A stretch of DNA of 64,000 nucleotides, from positions 1-64,000 of the IMG/VR virus record IMGVR_UViG_3300045526_000254, one strand, 5' to 3'. Of this stretch, positions 57,017-60,655 are shown one piece after another (positions within the stretch are counted from its first letter, which is position 1; each line of letters opens with the position of its first letter). The notes below the pieces were generated by a model. That model did not search any database. It saw nothing but the letters and a program-made list of their open reading frames with translations, and had not been told where the DNA came from. Source of the stretch: a virus. Lineage: Duplodnaviria; Caudoviricetes. The position numbers and the translations under genes were made by a program.

Positions 57017-57257
57017 GTGTCTTTTAACAGATGTTGATGCAGTTTTAATTAGTGAAGTTGTTGAAATTGATGCAGAATTCGGAGATCCTGATTGGAAATT
57101 AATCAATCCATATAAAATTGACAGTCAAGGTAATTTAACTCCTTGGCCTAATGTTTCGGAACAAAGGGAAATTAAAATTATTTCAGATAATATACTTACT
57201 GTTGTAGATCCTAAACCGGAAATTATTGAAAAGTATCTTGAACTAACTGCCGAATGA
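57000..57257 (+). CDS. Conserved hypothetical protein
   Basis: Overlaps neighbours at both ends; LINPY..., D.ILT.VDP pattern. Confidence 0.7.
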   Translation: MDKTIKCLLTDVDAVLISEVVEIDAEFGDPDWKLINPYKIDSQGNLTPWPNVSEQREIKIISDNILTVVDPKPEIIEKYLELTAE

Positions 57258-58531
57258 GATTTTACACAAACGTTCAAATGGTCGGGGATCACTTCTTGGT
57301 TCGTGGTTATGAAGATGGAAATCACTTTATGACCCGTGAGAAGTTTAACCCGACTCTTTTTGTCCCTTCTAATAAAAAAACTAAATATCAGACTTTAAAT
57401 GGAGAGTATGTTGAAGCAGTTCAACCTGGATGTGTTCGTGATTGTAGGGAGTTTGTTAAAAAGTATGAGAATGTAGAAAACTTTAAAATCTTTGGAAATA
57501 CTCAATACATCTATCAATACATTTCTGAAATGTATCCTGAGGATGAGATTAAGTTTGATATTGGTAAAATCAAAGTTACTACTCTGGATATTGAGGTTGC
57601 ATCCGAAAACGGTTTTCCTGACGTAGAATCTGCTTCTGAAGAAGTCCTTTTGATTACTATTCAGGATTATTCTTCCAAACAAATTCGTACTTGGGGAATG
57701 GGTCCTTTCCAGAACAAGCAAAAGAATGTAATTTATCGTTCTTTCACTAATGAACGTGATCTGTTGATGGATTTCATCAATTGGTGGATGGTTGAAGAAA
57801 ATATTCCTGAAGTTGTGACTGGATGGAATGTTGAACTGTATGATATTCCGTATCTTGTTCGTCGTTTAGATCGTGTTTTAGGCGAAAAACTGATGAAGCG
57901 TATGTCTCCTTGGGGTCTTGTAACCGAGAGTGAAATTTATATTTCTGGACGTAAGCATATTTCTTATGATGTTGGTGGTATTACTCAACTTGACTATCTG
58001 AATCTTTATAAGAAATTCACTTATAAAGCACAGGAGTCTTATCGTTTGGATTATATTGCCGAGGTTGAACTGGGGCAGAAAAAACTAGATCACTCCGAGT
58101 TTGATACCTTCAAGGATTTTTATACAAAGGGTTGGCAGAAGTTTGTAGAGTACAACATCGTTGACGTAGAACTTGTGGACCGTTTGGAAGACAAGATGAA
58201 ACTGATTGAACTCGCAATCACGATGGCATATGACGCCAAAGCGAACTATGCAGATGTATTTTCTCAGGTGAGAATGTGGGATACAATCATTTATAACTAT
58301 CTGAAGAAGAGGAATATTGTTATTCCTCCTAAAGAACGTTCTGATAAAGATTCCAAGTATGCTGGTGCGTATGTTAAAGAACCTATTCCAGGAAAGTATG
58401 ATTGGGTTGTGTCTTTTGACCTCAACTCCCTATACCCTCACCTCATTATGCAATACGCAATTTCACCAGAAACTCTTGTTACACAAGATGATATTAACAA
58501 TCGTATTGCAGAATTAGAGAAAATGTTGTAG
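57254..58531 (+). CDS. gp43: DNA polymerase gp43, N-terminal part (gp43A: NTD, 3'-5' exonuclease, motif A)
   Basis: MRFYTNV, ExoI LDIEV, ExoII TGWNVELYDIPY, ExoIII YNIVDV, motif A FDLNSLYPHLI; stops 27 codons after SLYP. Confidence 0.95.
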   Translation: MRFYTNVQMVGDHFLVRGYEDGNHFMTREKFNPTLFVPSNKKTKYQTLNGEYVEAVQPGCVRDCREFVKKYENVENFKIFGNTQYIYQYISEMYPEDEIKFDIGKIKVTTLDIEVASENGFPDVESASEEVLLITIQDYSSKQIRTWGMGPFQNKQKNVIYRSFTNERDLLMDFINWWMVEENIPEVVTGWNVELYDIPYLVRRLDRVLGEKLMKRMSPWGLVTESEIYISGRKHISYDVGGITQLDYLNLYKKFTYKAQESYRLDYIAEVELGQKKLDHSEFDTFKDFYTKGWQKFVEYNIVDVELVDRLEDKMKLIELAITMAYDAKANYADVFSQVRMWDTIIYNYLKKRNIVIPPKERSDKDSKYAGAYVKEPIPGKYDWVVSFDLNSLYPHLIMQYAISPETLVTQDDINNRIAELEKML

Positions 58532-58533
58532 AA

Positions 58534-58566
58534 TATCCACACAATATAAATAATAAAGTGTGGATA
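58534..58566 (+). promoter_or_regulatory. Hairpin with late promoter in its loop, upstream of the HNH gene
   Basis: TATCCACAC (58534-58542) / GTGTGGATA (58558-58566); TATAAATA at 58545-58552. Confidence 0.7.
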
Positions 58567-58577
58567 CAGTAAATTAA

Positions 58578-59138
58578 ATGCAACCAAAATTTAACATAAC
58601 AAAAGAACAATTAGAGCAACTTTATATTGTTGAGAACAAAAGTAGAAAAGAGTGTGCTGAATTTTTTGGTTGTTCTGACCCTCTTATAAAACAAAAGATA
58701 CGCAAATATGGACTACAAAAACCAAAACAATTAGAAAATAAGAATAAAGAAAGAAAGGAAATTCTCTATTGTGAAAATTGCGGTTCTTCATTTATAGTTA
58801 GCAGATTTAGAGCAACAAGTGAAAAATGGAAACTTCGTTTTTGTTCTCATTCTTGTTCTACTAAATTTAGATATTTGGGTGAAGAACATAAACGGGCAGT
58901 TTTAAATTCTATTGCTGCCCGTAGAAGATGTAGAATGAAAAACGCTTTTGATGCAACTGCAAATCAACAAAAAATAAATGAGATATACTGTGAAGCAAAA
59001 CAACTAACGGAAGATACTGGTATTCCACACGAAGTAGATCATATTATTCCAATTTCAAAAGGAGGAAAACATCACGAAGATAATTTGCAGATTATTACTA
59101 TGAGTGAAAATCGCAAAAAACATACTAAAATTATTTAA
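58578..59138 (+). mobile_element. HNH homing endonuclease splitting gp43
   Basis: N-terminal HTH-like region, Zn finger CENC...FCSHSC, HEVDHIIPISKGGKHHEDNLQII..SEN.KK. Confidence 0.9.
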
Positions 59139-59139
59139 A

Positions 59140-59304
59140 ATGACTTACGAAGAAGAATATCAACTACGAAACAGAGAGAAGGCAAAACAGGCAAAATATG
59201 GAATGGTATGGTGTTCTTATTGTGATAGAGATATGGTAGGTGATATTGGTAAATGTTCTTATTGTGGAAGATTTAACAACAGAAAGAAAATTCGATATGA
59301 GTAA
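59140..59304 (+). CDS. 54-aa Zn-ribbon protein inside the split gp43 locus
   Basis: MTYEEEYQLRNREKAKQAKYGMVWCSYCDRDMVGDIGKCSYCGRFNNRKKIRYE; CxxC-x10-CxxC; its stop overlaps the gp43B start region. Confidence 0.6.
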   Translation: MTYEEEYQLRNREKAKQAKYGMVWCSYCDRDMVGDIGKCSYCGRFNNRKKIRYE

Positions 59305-60655
59305 TTCTATGTGGAAAGATGTTCGTAAAATGTCCCGTGAAGAAATTGAAGAAGAATTAGATACACTTAAAAAAGTAAGAGAACTTTCTACTAAGGTTAG
59401 TGTTGATAAAATTCTTAATCAAGAATTAGATTTTGAACCATTACAAAAAGTAAATCTTACTATAACGGCAAATGGGTCTCTTTATCGTAGAGTGAAGGGT
59501 ATGCTTCCAGAACTGATGGAAAAAATTTATAATGAACGTGTGATCTTTAAAAAGAAAATGCTTGCTGCGGAGCAGGAATATGAGAAAACGAAAAACAAAC
59601 AACTTGTTAAAGAGATTGCCAGGTGCAATAATATTCAAATGGCAAGAAAGATTCAATTGAACTCTGCTTATGGTGCAATTGGTAATCAGTATTTCCGATA
59701 TTTTAAACTCGCAAATGCTGAGGCGATTACACTTTCCGGGCAAGTATCAATTCAGTGGATTATGAATGCCATGAATGGGTATTTAAATAAAATTCTCAAA
59801 ACTAATGAGGTAGATTATGTTATTGCTTCTGATACTGATTCTTTGTATATTAATATGGGCCCTTTGGTTGAAAATGTATTCAAAGGACGAGAGAAAACTA
59901 CTCAAAGCATTGTGTCGTTCCTTGATAAGGTCTGTCAAGTGGAATTTGAAAAGTATATTGAAAGTTCTTACCAAAAACTGGCGGACTATGTGAATGCTTA
60001 TGACCAGAAGATGTTCATGAAGCGTGAATGTATTGCCGAACGTGGTATTTGGACTGCAAAGAAGCGATATATTCTAAGCGTATGGGATAGTGAAGGTGTC
60101 CGTTATGAAGAACCTAAACTGAAGATCAAGGGTATTGAGGCAATCAAGTCTTCTACTCCAGCACCTTGCCGTAAGATGCTGAAGGACTCCTTTAAGATCT
60201 TGATGAGTGGAACTGAAGATGACCTGATTGAATATATTGATAAGTGTCGTGAAGAGTTCAGAAAACTTCCTCCAGAACAGATTGCTTTTCCTAAATCTGC
60301 TTCTGATATTCGTAAGTATCAATCATCTTCCAGCATTTACGGATTTAAAACTCCATTTCATATTCGTGGAGCACTTCTATTCAATCATTACATTAAAGAG
60401 AAAAAACTTACAAACAAATACTCTTTGATTAATAATGGTGAAAAAATTAAATATATTTACCTCAAAACTCCAAATATTATTCGGGAAAATGTAATTGCAT
60501 TTATTCAAGAATTTCCCAGAGAACTTGGTCTTGACAAATACATCGACTATGACCTACAATTCGAAAAGAGTTTTATTGATCCACTTAGATCTGTTTTAGA
60601 TTCAATCGGGTGGCGAGTAGAAAAAACAGTTACTTTGGAGGCATTTTTTAACTAA
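59297..60655 (+). CDS. gp43: DNA polymerase gp43, C-terminal part (gp43B: fingers, palm motifs B/C, thumb)
   Basis: VSVDKILNQ..ANG, motif B KIQLNSAYG, motif C ASDTDS, KKRY, KIKGIE, ends in TLEAFF clamp-binding motif. Start is ATG 59297 or 59309. Confidence 0.93.
   Translation: MSNSMWKDVRKMSREEIEEELDTLKKVRELSTKVSVDKILNQELDFEPLQKVNLTITANGSLYRRVKGMLPELMEKIYNERVIFKKKMLAAEQEYEKTKNKQLVKEIARCNNIQMARKIQLNSAYGAIGNQYFRYFKLANAEAITLSGQVSIQWIMNAMNGYLNKILKTNEVDYVIASDTDSLYINMGPLVENVFKGREKTTQSIVSFLDKVCQVEFEKYIESSYQKLADYVNAYDQKMFMKRECIAERGIWTAKKRYILSVWDSEGVRYEEPKLKIKGIEAIKSSTPAPCRKMLKDSFKILMSGTEDDLIEYIDKCREEFRKLPPEQIAFPKSASDIRKYQSSSSIYGFKTPFHIRGALLFNHYIKEKKLTNKYSLINNGEKIKYIYLKTPNIIRENVIAFIQEFPRELGLDKYIDYDLQFEKSFIDPLRSVLDSIGWRVEKTVTLEAFFN

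What the first reader, a model, noticed from the sequence alone, without database searches (positions are those of the whole stretch)
57254..60655. DNA polymerase gp43 split into two genes by an HNH endonuclease cassette, without intron or intein
Seen: gp43A stops at ...SLYPHLIMQYAISPETL-VTQDDINNRIAELEKML*. The polymerase resumes about 770 nt later in a separate ORF at ...STKVSVDKILNQ, with an HNH gene and a Zn-ribbon ORF in between. Catalytic motif A and motifs B/C, which form a single active site, are therefore on different polypeptides. The interval is filled by ORFs, leaving no room for a ribozyme core, and neither end has intein residues. Established: split gp43A/B genes occur in some Aeromonas and Acinetobacter T4-like phages, and mobE splits nrdA in Aeh1 into two chains that reassemble. 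Inference: as I recall, the known gp43 splits are in the fingers domain, whereas this one is just downstream of motif A, so it looks like an independent split producing a two-chain replicase.
Basis: partly seen in the sequence, partly recalled or inferred. Interest (0 to 1): 0.85.

Follow-up and report, generated by a model that had tools for sequence, protein, structure and literature searches.

The report
Nuclease cassette splits cyanophage DNA polymerase
A selfish HNH nuclease gene sits inside the essential DNA polymerase gene of this T4-like cyanophage, so the enzyme is made as two proteins; the same cassette, with two short extra peptide ends, recurs in dozens of uncultured cyanophages, a trick already described for two other phage enzymes.

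Summary
gp43 is encoded as gp43A (57254-58531) and gp43B (59297-60655). Between them lie an HNH gene and a 54-aa Zn-ribbon ORF. No intron or intein was found.

The break maps to RB69 residues ~431-440, in the palm just after motif A. That is about 80-100 residues upstream of the fingers-tip split of Aeromonas phages, so it is an independent split site.

It is not a one-off. 63 IMG/VR contigs from more than 50 metagenomes carry the same gp43A-HNH-gp43B arrangement, with a nearly invariant 13-17-aa C-terminal tail on A and a ~26-aa N-terminal extension on B.

- **Mobile:** on a tree of the distal polymerase parts, split and intact alleles interleave (at least 10 well-supported changes). The window's nearest relative is intact.
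- **Fixed block:** near-isogenic pairs differ only in a block running from ~30 nt before the break to ~210 nt into gp43B.
- **Functional:** both halves evolve at dN/dS 0.06-0.19, and the split persists where the HNH has decayed.

This matches the published MobE/nrdA and MobA/topoisomerase "genes-in-pieces" cassettes, so it is a new member of a known kind. That the tails act as a clasp is not shown. This scan had already noted the same cassette in other genomes.

The parts
57254..58531 (+). gp43A: N-terminal domain, 3'-5' exonuclease and the first part of the palm, with motif A (DLNSLYP). 425 aa plus stop.
   Evidence: ORF. Pfam DNA_pol_B_exo1 (4.6e-21) and DNA_pol_B (2e-12). Aligns to RB69 pol residues 3-431. 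90% identical to S-SRM01 gp43 residues 1-411 and 96% to the intact allele L076.
58448..58477 (+). Left edge of the cassette-linked tract. These are the last ~30 nt before the break. Split alleles read QY(S/A)ISPETL where intact alleles read QYNISPETL.
   Evidence: sequence comparison; identity to near-isogenic intact alleles falls to 53-83% in this last 30-nt bin; it is a clear drop in five of the six pairs.
58478..58531 (+). C-terminal extension (tail) of gp43A, VTQDDINNRIAELEKML*. It has no counterpart in intact gp43.
   Evidence: The consensus over 34 distinct versions is V-x-x-x-(E/D)-(L/I/V)-N-N-R-I-A-E-L-E-K-M-L*. N7, R9, I10, L13 and E14 are invariant. Variation is mostly at third codon positions (variable sites 12/7/18 by codon position).
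58532..58577 (+). Intercistronic spacer. It holds a 9-bp inverted repeat (58534-58542 with 58558-58566) that encloses TATAAATA (58545-58552), the T4-type late-promoter box. It lies just upstream of the HNH start.
   Evidence: Fold -15.1 kcal/mol, z -4.2. TATAAATA is invariant or nearly so in all HNH-bearing loci. The stem is 94% paired over 20 loci, but there are no compensatory changes and the middle pair is broken in half of them. No terminator-like site was found.
58578..59138 (+). Free-standing HNH endonuclease gene (186 aa): an N-terminal helix-turn-helix-like module, a CxxC...CxxxC zinc finger and a C-terminal HNH motif.
   Evidence: Pfam HNH 1.8e-8. PHROG HNH-endonuclease families at 2e-12. 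It is 79-91% identical in 56 full-length IMG/VR gp43-embedded copies, whose polymerase halves are only 60-92% identical.
59140..59304 (+). Zn-ribbon ORF of 54 aa, a cargo gene in the slot between the HNH gene and gp43B. Function unknown.
   Evidence: Present at 87-93% identity in 7 of the split loci and absent from most. Only 4 protein clusters in the 5.8-billion-protein database. Only weak Pfam and PHROG matches.
59297..60655 (+). gp43B: the rest of the palm, the fingers (motif B), motif C, the thumb and the C-terminus. The start is ATG 59297 (overlapping the Zn-ORF stop) or ATG 59309 (MWKD, the start used in loci without the Zn ORF).
   Evidence: ORF. Pfam DNA_pol_B 1.6e-15. Aligns to T4 gp43 residues 453-509 and 544-897. 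78% identical to S-SRM01 gp43 residues 414-832.
59309..59395 (+). N-terminal extension of gp43B (MWKDVRKMSREEIEEELDTLKKVREL-STK). It has no counterpart in intact gp43.
   Evidence: 37 distinct versions. M1, W2, K3, D4, M8, E12, I13, E16, L17, L20 and E25 are invariant. Variable sites by codon position are 19/11/21. Predicted helical, but with low confidence.
59396..59519 (+). Recoded polymerase segment that travels with the cassette (VSVDKILNQELDFEPLQKVNLTITANGSLYRRVKGMLPELMEKIY). Intact alleles read ...VTVDKILNQE.TFELYKDYAVCANGAMYRKDVRGFLPELMEKIY. By inference, the HNH target site lies in the intact version of this segment.
   Evidence: In six near-isogenic split/intact pairs, identity is 30-73% up to ~210 nt after the gp43B start; in four pairs it then jumps to 86-100% (and is 96-100% from there on in L023/L115), while in the other two it rises more gradually. 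Divergent split loci rise from 44-70% identity in distal parts to 78-87% identity here.

Best explanation
The DNA polymerase gene of this T4-like cyanophage has been invaded by a mobile cassette of about 1.07 kb (roughly 58448-59519). At its centre is a free-standing HNH homing endonuclease gene.

The cassette breaks gp43 in a loop of the palm domain, 8-10 residues after the ISPET helix that follows catalytic motif A (RB69 ~431-440). It brings with it:
- a stop codon and a 13-17-aa C-terminal tail for the upstream half;
- a spacer with a T4-type late-promoter box for the nuclease gene;
- a slot for cargo genes, here a Zn-ribbon ORF;
- a start codon and a ~26-aa N-terminal extension for the downstream half;
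- about 125 nt of recoded polymerase sequence.

gp43A and gp43B are translated separately. They assemble non-covalently into one enzyme whose active site is composite: the motif A aspartate comes from gp43A, and motifs B and C come from gp43B. No RNA or protein splicing is involved.

Shown here: the anatomy, the recurrence, the patchy distribution, the fixed block boundaries, purifying selection on both halves, and persistence of the split after nuclease decay.

Inferred:
- The nuclease cuts intact alleles in or near the segment that the cassette replaces, and repair copies the whole block in (homing).
- The recoded segment makes carriers immune to cutting.
- The two extensions help the halves assemble or function, as shown experimentally for the MobE-split NrdA of phage Aeh1.
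For: **Anatomy and break site:**

**No splicing element:** no Rfam intron and no intein domain.

**Recurrence:** the same gp43A-HNH-gp43B order occurs in 63 of 69 IMG/VR loci found with the HNH protein. The A tail and B extension are conserved. About 80 protein clusters hold 415-429-aa gp43A proteins with this tail, some on contigs up to 233 kb.

**Mobility:**
- The tree of distal polymerase parts has 35 split and 58 intact rows. It needs at least 16 changes of state, of which at least 10 are forced by well-supported branches.
- The window is sister to intact L076 (support 100, 94% identity).
- Single 90%-identity protein clusters contain both 423-425-aa and 831-833-aa members.
- The HNH protein is 79-91% identical across backbones that are only 60-92% identical.

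**Fixed block with sharp edges:**

**Function:**
- dN/dS is 0.055-0.19 for both halves, including lineages with a decayed HNH.
- The tails vary mostly at third codon positions.
- Four independent HNH deletion or pseudogene forms keep the split and the tails.
- No second gp43 was found in this record or in five other records of 27-141 kb.

**Precedent:** conserved C- and N-terminal tails, an insert-derived divergent homology region, and retention of the split after endonuclease loss are described for MobE/nrdA (PMC3045599) and MobA/topoisomerase (bioRxiv 10.1101/2022.08.31.505936).
Against: - There is no experimental evidence for polymerase activity of the two chains, for cleavage by this HNH, or for its target.
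- All records are incomplete (14-65%), so a second polymerase elsewhere cannot be strictly excluded.
- The clasp idea is weak. The AlphaFold model of a natural read-through form had pLDDT below 50 around the junction. The helical hydrophobic moment of the tails is not significantly above shuffles (fraction of shuffles at least as high 0.09-0.43).
- In Aeh1 NrdA the tails were not needed for heterodimer formation, only for higher-order assembly and activity (abstract and section titles of PMC3045599), so "zipper" may be the wrong picture.
- The cassette copies are only about 80-90% identical to each other, so the transfers are not all recent. Recombination between co-infecting phages without nuclease action could give the same pattern.
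Confidence: 0.85

Rival explanations
1. The interruption is removed at the RNA level. A group I or group II intron carrying the HNH ORF would be spliced out, so one polymerase chain would be made.
For: HNH genes inside group I introns of phage DNA polymerase genes exist, for example I-PfoP3I in cyanophage Pf-WMP3 (PMC3428280, listed). About 250 nt outside the HNH ORF could in principle hold a ribozyme core.
Against: No Rfam intron match at E<=10. The flanks of the HNH gene are protein-coding, with third-position-dominated variation and a conserved stop and start. HNH-decayed forms keep only 61-100 nt between the two genes, with no room for a ribozyme, and still carry both tails. The 46-nt spacer holds a promoter box rather than paired intron elements.
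Confidence: 0.02
2. The two tails are a very small split intein. They would ligate the halves by protein trans-splicing, as in the "fractured genes" of marine metagenomes.
For: Cyanophage-like genes broken by a free-standing endonuclease and flanked by split inteins are known (Dassa et al. 2009, PMC2677866).
Against: No Hint/intein domain is present. The tails are 13-17 and ~26 aa, far below intein size. The first tail residue is V or I, not Cys/Ser/Thr. The B extension does not end in His-Asn followed by Cys/Ser/Thr.
Confidence: 0.02
3. The split gene is a dead copy. Replication would depend on another polymerase in the unsequenced part of the genome or in a co-infecting phage.
For: The window's record is only 43% complete, and all other records are fragments.
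Against: dN/dS is 0.055-0.19 in both halves over dS up to ~1-2.4. All catalytic motifs are intact. The gene sits at the syntenic gp43 position between hsp20 and uvsX, as in S-SRM01. No second copy was found in 27-141-kb records. The form is widespread.
Confidence: 0.03
4. The split arose once and is inherited vertically. The patchy pattern would come from repeated reversion or ordinary recombination with intact alleles, and the HNH would play no active part (a passive passenger, not homing).
For: Cassette copies differ by 10-20%, so many transfers are old. No nuclease assay exists. T4-like phages recombine freely.
Against: At least 10 strongly supported state changes occur on the backbone tree, with split alleles nested inside otherwise near-identical intact clades. 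In four of six pairs the downstream block edge falls at the same place, about 210 nt after the gp43B start. The HNH ORF is intact in most loci, and the degraded forms look like the usual end of a homing cycle. The pattern is the same as for MobA, which has been shown to be an active homing endonuclease.
Confidence: 0.08

Closest known systems
nrdA-a / mobE / nrdA-b of Aeromonas phage Aeh1 (Friedrich et al. 2007; Crona et al. 2011, PMC3045599)
   Same: A free-standing HNH-family endonuclease gene sits inside an essential gene of a T4-like phage. The active site is divided between two polypeptides, and there is no intron or intein. New C- and N-terminal tails were created by the insertion. The nuclease gene has late-type regulation.
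   Different: The target is ribonucleotide reductase, not the polymerase. The tails there were shown experimentally to be essential for activity; nothing is tested here. This HNH has its nuclease motif at the C-terminus, after an HTH-like module and a zinc finger. Homology to MobE was not tested.
MobA element splitting the topoisomerase gene (T4 genes 39/60) in many myoviruses (Manning & Atkins 2022, bioRxiv 10.1101/2022.08.31.505936)
   Same: A mobile cassette always inserts at one site of one gene. It has many independent insertions across phage lineages, conserved CTE and NTE sequences, an insert-derived homology region that diverges from the target, and progressive loss of the endonuclease with retention of the split and the tails.
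   Different: The target gene differs. There is no translational bypass element here. This cassette has a variable cargo slot (Zn-ribbon ORF, Dam methylase).
Split gene 43 (43A/43B) of Aeromonas salmonicida phages 25, 44RR and Aes007 (Petrov et al., as reviewed in PMC2988022; record JN377897)
   Same: The same enzyme is made from two cistrons, with or without an endonuclease gene between them. Motif A is on gp43A, and motifs B and C are on gp43B. The two products of phage 25 co-purify and are active (PMC2988022).
   Different: That break is at the tip of the fingers: Aes007 gp43A is 498 aa. Here the break is in the palm loop right after motif A (gp43A is 425 aa). The endonuclease is a different one, and phage 25 also has a group I intron in 43B. 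The host clade differs too (Aeromonas phages versus cyanophages).
"Fractured genes" with split inteins and a free-standing endonuclease (Dassa et al. 2009, PMC2677866)
   Same: Cyanophage-like replication genes in metagenomes are broken by a free-standing endonuclease gene at a fixed point. Alleles with and without the endonuclease exist.
   Different: Those halves end in split inteins and are ligated. Here no intein is present, and the chains presumably stay separate.

Membership tests
Family B replicative DNA polymerase (T4 gp43 type) | An exonuclease domain plus polymerase motifs A (DxxSLYPS), B (KxxxNSxYG) and C (DTDS), all present and intact | tested here: met
   Pfam PF03104 and PF00136. 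Alignments to RB69 and T4 gp43 structures and to intact cyanophage gp43. Motif A is on gp43A; motifs B and C are on gp43B.
Free-standing HNH homing endonuclease | HNH nuclease motif with its own start and stop, not embedded in an intron or intein | tested here: met
   Pfam HNH 1.8e-8. PHROG HNH families. A separate ORF in a different frame from gp43A and gp43B. No intron.
Free-standing HNH homing endonuclease | Sporadic distribution among close relatives, with linked flanking sequence transferred together with the gene | tested here: met
   At least 10 well-supported state changes on the backbone tree. A fixed divergent block in near-isogenic pairs. The junction region is more alike than the backbone.
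Free-standing HNH homing endonuclease | Site-specific cleavage of alleles that lack the gene, and biased inheritance in mixed infection | not testable with these tools
   This needs a nuclease assay and phage crosses.
Endonuclease cassette with CTE/NTE tails (MobE/nrdA and MobA/topoisomerase type of genes-in-pieces) | The same insertion point in all carriers, and conserved new C-terminal and N-terminal extensions on the two products | tested here: met
   All 63 loci are broken at the same point. The tail and extension are nearly invariant at key positions.
Endonuclease cassette with CTE/NTE tails (MobE/nrdA and MobA/topoisomerase type of genes-in-pieces) | The split and tails are retained after the endonuclease is lost | tested here: met
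   L066/L067/L075, L072 and L094 are deletion forms and L062 is a pseudogene. All keep gp43A, gp43B and the tails. dN/dS is 0.07-0.15 in those lineages.
Endonuclease cassette with CTE/NTE tails (MobE/nrdA and MobA/topoisomerase type of genes-in-pieces) | Tails required for assembly or activity of the split enzyme | tested here: inconclusive
   The AlphaFold2 model of the natural read-through form predicts helices for both, but pLDDT is below 50 around the junction. Hydrophobic moment is not significant. This needs biochemistry.
Endonuclease cassette with CTE/NTE tails (MobE/nrdA and MobA/topoisomerase type of genes-in-pieces) | The endonuclease is homologous to the T4 Mob proteins | not tested
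   No Mob sequence was compared. The domain order here (HTH-like, zinc finger, C-terminal HNH) was read.
Group I intron with an endonuclease ORF | Ribozyme core (P3-P9) detectable around the ORF | tested here: not met
   No Intron_gpI hit at E<=10. The flanks are coding. The remnant forms leave 61-100 nt.
Intein or split intein | Hint fold, Cys/Ser/Thr at the first intein and first C-extein residue, and a terminal His-Asn | tested here: not met
   No Hint domain. The tails are too short. The first tail residue is V or I, and the extension does not end in HN.
Aeromonas-phage type split gp43 (fingers-tip split) | Break between the two long helices of the fingers domain | tested here: not met
   Aes007 gp43A runs about 86 residues past ISPE. 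The window's gp43A stops 20 residues past it, and only about 8 of those are homologous to intact gp43.

The most novel reading that the evidence does not exclude
The cassette may be more than a tolerated parasite. Its two extensions could form a self-contained heterodimerisation clasp that re-joins a polymerase cut next to its catalytic aspartate. The slot between the HNH gene and gp43B could serve as a hitch-hiking site through which cargo genes (a Dam-type adenine methylase in some phages, a Zn-ribbon protein here) spread between cyanophage lineages inside an essential gene, where they are hard to lose.
Probability: 0.3. Interest if true: 0.65.

Novelty: new member of a known kind. Interest (0 to 1): 0.5.

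Why it matters
The replicative polymerase is the most constrained enzyme of a T4-like phage. Here it is cut in the palm, with one catalytic aspartate motif on each chain, and the phages carrying the cut are common in nature.

Metagenomes hold near-isogenic pairs of intact and split alleles. One pair (L023/L115) is 96-100% identical beyond the block on the downstream side and 83-100% upstream. They also hold forms with and without the nuclease, and about 35 natural variants of each tail.

This gives a ready-made comparative set for a question that Edgell and colleagues called open in 2010: how do the pieces of endonuclease-fragmented enzymes find each other?

It also adds a third target gene to the class of tail-bearing endonuclease cassettes. 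That supports the suggestion that such tails are a general alternative to introns and inteins.

On the practical side, gene callers and g43-based diversity surveys will mis-handle these alleles.

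Tried and rejected
1. **Intron.** The Rfam scan at permissive threshold over 58300-59700 gave only chance snoRNA-like hits. Rejected.

2. **Duplication of the target.** I suspected that the A tail was a copy of the VTVDKILNQ segment. Comparison with 75 intact alleles showed that only the first 4-5 tail residues (VEKH) echo the intact LEE(R/K)H. 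The rest is new sequence. Rejected.

3. **HNH-Zn-ribbon fusion.** The 242-aa HNH relatives have a second N-terminal HTH-like repeat rather than the Zn ORF. Rejected.

4. **Structure model of the assembled enzyme.** I modelled a natural in-frame read-through of the HNH-decayed locus L066 (P0121, alignment A3). Mean pLDDT was 72, but it was below 50 for residues 363-413 and 423-465. No contact output is available, so the model cannot test the clasp. A second run was not made for that reason.

5. **Amphipathicity of the tails.** Not significant against shuffles.

6. **Spacer hairpin.** It is thermodynamically stable in the window. Across 20 loci there are no compensatory changes, and the central pair is broken in half of them. 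It stays a hypothesis.

7. **Isolate genomes.** Among 50,697 phage records I found no close HNH relative (best 48% over 41% of the protein), no match to the gp43B extension at E<=1, and no full-length match to the A tail above 64% identity.

8. **Literature.** Four full-text searches found no description of this cyanophage split. Subscription journals are not covered.

Full report
**What is there**

The window is part of a 91-kb IMG/VR virus record, estimated 43% complete. It is a T4-like cyanophage. The closest isolate is the freshwater Synechococcus phage S-SRM01 (Kyanoviridae), whose gp43 is a single 833-aa ORF at the same position between hsp20 and uvsX.

The window has four tightly packed ORFs on the + strand:
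- gp43A, 57254-58531 (425 aa);
- a 46-nt spacer;
- an HNH ORF, 58578-59138 (186 aa);
- a 54-aa CxxC-x10-CxxC ORF, 59140-59304, starting 1 nt after the HNH stop;
- gp43B, from ATG 59297 (ATGAGTAA overlap with the preceding stop) or ATG 59309, to 60655.

Pfam finds the PolB exonuclease and polymerase domains in gp43A, the PolB polymerase domain in gp43B, and HNH (1.8e-8) in the middle ORF. It finds nothing else, and in particular no Hint/intein domain. Rfam gives no intron match at E<=10.

**Where the break is**

Against intact cyanophage gp43, the sequence ...QYNISPETL-(L/V)(E/D)E(R/K)HP(S/T)-V(T/S)VDKILNQ... is interrupted inside the short variable block.

Against solved structures, gp43A aligns to RB69 polymerase up to residue 431 (...NISPETIA). 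gp43B picks up at T4 residue ~453 and runs to 897. By the published RB69 domain limits (palm 383-468 and 572-729, fingers 469-571; from my own knowledge, not checked here), this lies in the palm. It falls between the helix that follows motif A and the beta-hairpin that leads into the fingers.

The annotated split gp43 of Aeromonas phage Aes007 (gp43A, putative HNH homing endonuclease, gp43B) breaks about 80-100 residues later. That break comes after the first long fingers helix and shortly before motif B. The two splits are thus at different sites. In both, motif A is on one chain and motifs B and C are on the other.

**It is a recurrent cassette, not a one-off**

A search of IMG/VR with the HNH protein returned 69 loci. 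In 63 of them the HNH gene or a remnant of it lies between gp43 halves. The other six are 43-52% identical relatives in other contexts. The contigs come from more than 50 different metagenome datasets.

The broken ends are the same everywhere:
- gp43A ends in V-x-x-x-(E/D)-(L/I/V)-NNRIAELEKML*.
- gp43B begins MWKDVRKMSxEEIxEELEALKxVREL..., before rejoining the polymerase at V(N/S)VDKLLNQ.

Two flanking polymerase stretches also differ from all intact alleles. These are QY(S/A)ISPE versus QYNISPE, and ...KVNLT(I/M)TANGALY(R/H)RVKG versus ...YKDYAVCANGAMYRKDVRG.

A search of 5.8 billion proteins, restricted to the last 42 residues of gp43A, listed about 80 clusters of 415-429-aa proteins matching over the full tail. 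Some sit on contigs of 145-233 kb.

None of 50,697 GenBank phage records carries the HNH, the A tail or the B extension.

**It moves**

I built a tree from the distal parts of the polymerase (gp43A residues 1-395 plus gp43B residues 86-452, leaving out the junction) for 35 split and 58 intact alleles.
- Rows left out: L079 (frameshifted), L092 and L131 (duplicates of L023 and L008), and all loci that lack a full distal A or distal B part.
- The tree needs at least 16 changes of state. At least 10 are forced by branches with SH-aLRT >= 95.
- The window is sister to the intact allele L076 (support 100, 94% identity). L014 is sister to intact L086, and so on.

Single 90%-identity protein clusters contain both 423-425-aa and 831-833-aa members.

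The HNH protein is 79-91% identical across loci whose polymerase halves are 60-92% identical to the window's.

Sliding-window identity shows two things:
- The window is 82-96% identical to L076 along the whole gene, except from the tail to about 165 nt into gp43B.
- Strongly divergent carriers (L052, 44-70% in distal parts) rise to 78-87% around the junction.

In six near-isogenic split/intact pairs, the divergent block starts within the last 30 nt before the break. In four of them it ends about 210 nt after the gp43B start codon; in the other two (L018/L108, L031/L147) identity recovers more gradually. In L023/L115, identity beyond the block is 96-100% on the downstream side.

The transferred unit is therefore: left edge + A tail + spacer + HNH (+ cargo) + B extension + about 125 nt of recoded polymerase. 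In the window this is about 58448-59519.

This is the pattern expected for a free-standing homing endonuclease that cuts intact alleles near the insertion point and is copied in together with a cleavage-resistant version of the target. The cutting itself is inferred, not shown.

**The two-chain enzyme is under selection**

In split-versus-split comparisons, dN/dS is 0.065-0.095 for gp43A and 0.055-0.19 for gp43B, at dS of 0.5-2.4.

The tail and the extension vary mostly at third codon positions. Variable sites by codon position are 12/7/18 and 19/11/21, so they are translated and constrained.

Four independent degenerate forms exist:
- a deletion from the end of the A tail into the last 35 HNH codons (L066, L067, L075);
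- a deletion from the spacer into the HNH gene (L072);
- a partial deletion (L094);
- a multiply stopped pseudogene (L062).

All four keep separate gp43A and gp43B genes with their extensions. dN/dS is 0.07-0.15 in these lineages. The form that lost the spacer shows that the spacer promoter is not needed for gp43B.

No second gp43 was found in the window's record or in five other carrier records of 27-141 kb. All of these records are incomplete.

**Regulatory detail**

The spacer has a 9-bp inverted repeat around TATAAATA, the T4 late-promoter box, which is invariant or nearly so in every HNH-bearing locus.

The hairpin is stable in the window (z -4.2). Across 20 loci it is 94% paired, but without compensatory changes, and its central pair is often broken. 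No terminator-like site separates the genes.

The likely reading, by analogy with T4 endonuclease genes, is this. Early read-through transcription makes gp43A and gp43B. The nuclease is expressed mainly late from its own promoter. This is inference.

**The tails**

Both extensions are predicted helical in an AlphaFold2 model of a natural read-through of locus L066. Confidence around the junction is below 50, and no contact information is returned.

Their invariant hydrophobic residues follow an i, i+3/i+4 spacing. However, the helical hydrophobic moment is not significantly above shuffles. Whether the tails zip together, pack on the palm or do something else remains open.

**Comparison with what is known**

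The kind is published.
- Crona et al. 2011 (PMC3045599) showed that tails created by the mobE insertion in Aeh1 nrdA are essential for activity of the fragmented reductase. They proposed this as a general alternative to splicing.
- Manning & Atkins 2022 (bioRxiv 10.1101/2022.08.31.505936) describe the MobA element. It has one insertion site in the topoisomerase gene, many independent insertions, conserved CTE and NTE, an insert-derived divergent homology region, and loss of the endonuclease with retention of the split and the tails.
- Edgell et al. 2010 (PMC2988022) review split gene 43 of Aeromonas phages 25 and 44RR, whose products co-purify and are active.
- Dassa et al. 2009 (PMC2677866) describe endonuclease-fractured cyanophage-like genes held together by split inteins.

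The present cassette has every structural feature of the MobA/MobE type, at a new target and site (gp43, palm, next to motif A) and in a new phage group. It also has a variable cargo slot. I found no paper that describes it, but subscription journals are not covered.

The scan's own index shows that the same cassette was already noted and followed up in other genomes. One of those notes gave me the lead to the MobA preprint, which I then read.

**Verdict**

- Novelty: a new member of a known kind.
- Interest is moderate (0.5). This is a well-populated natural series of intact, split, nuclease-bearing and nuclease-free alleles of an essential polymerase, useful for asking how fragmented enzymes reassemble. 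It is not a new principle.

Noticed in passing
L022:3571-4023, L007:3571-4023, L063:155-604; the same ORF is also in L025 (~1401-1853) and in L010, whose HNH-gp43B gap has the same length: In some carriers the slot between the HNH gene and gp43B holds a 150-151-aa DNA N6-adenine methyltransferase with an NPPY motif (Pfam Dam PF05869, E 2.8e-30) instead of the Zn-ribbon ORF. A methylase riding in a homing cassette inside the polymerase gene could protect the carrier's DNA, or it could simply hitch-hike.
   Followed up: partly
L033:3573-3806: This is a third kind of cargo in the same slot: a 78-aa ORF with no Pfam match.
   Followed up: partly
P0001, P0006, P0015, P0034: Some close relatives of the HNH protein are 241-242 aa. 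They carry two tandem copies of the N-terminal helix-turn-helix-like module (NITKEQLYQLYI.ENK...), which may mean a longer or different recognition site.
   Followed up: partly
L091 (~2440-2540) and L079 (~2100-2120): Two otherwise intact gp43 alleles are unusual. L091 has about 125 extra nt in the fingers region (...QLVDIEEEMKRR...). L079 is frameshifted shortly after the break site and has lost about 110 nt. Neither was examined further.
   Followed up: no
one search hits P0185, P0192, P0209, P0213, P0214, P0234 (505-568 aa): Other clusters of gp43 N-terminal pieces of 505-570 aa appear, some on contigs above 200 kb. These may be the fingers-tip type of split in cyanophage-like genomes. The scan index also lists fingers-tip and ExoI splits of gp43 in other genomes.
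   Followed up: no
window 59140-59304: The Zn-ribbon ORF has only four clusters of relatives in the 5.8-billion-protein database (67-93% identical, about 100 member sequences); within the IMG/VR loci it was seen only in copies of this cassette. Its stop overlaps the first candidate start of gp43B, so it may couple translation of gp43B in this variant.
   Followed up: partly
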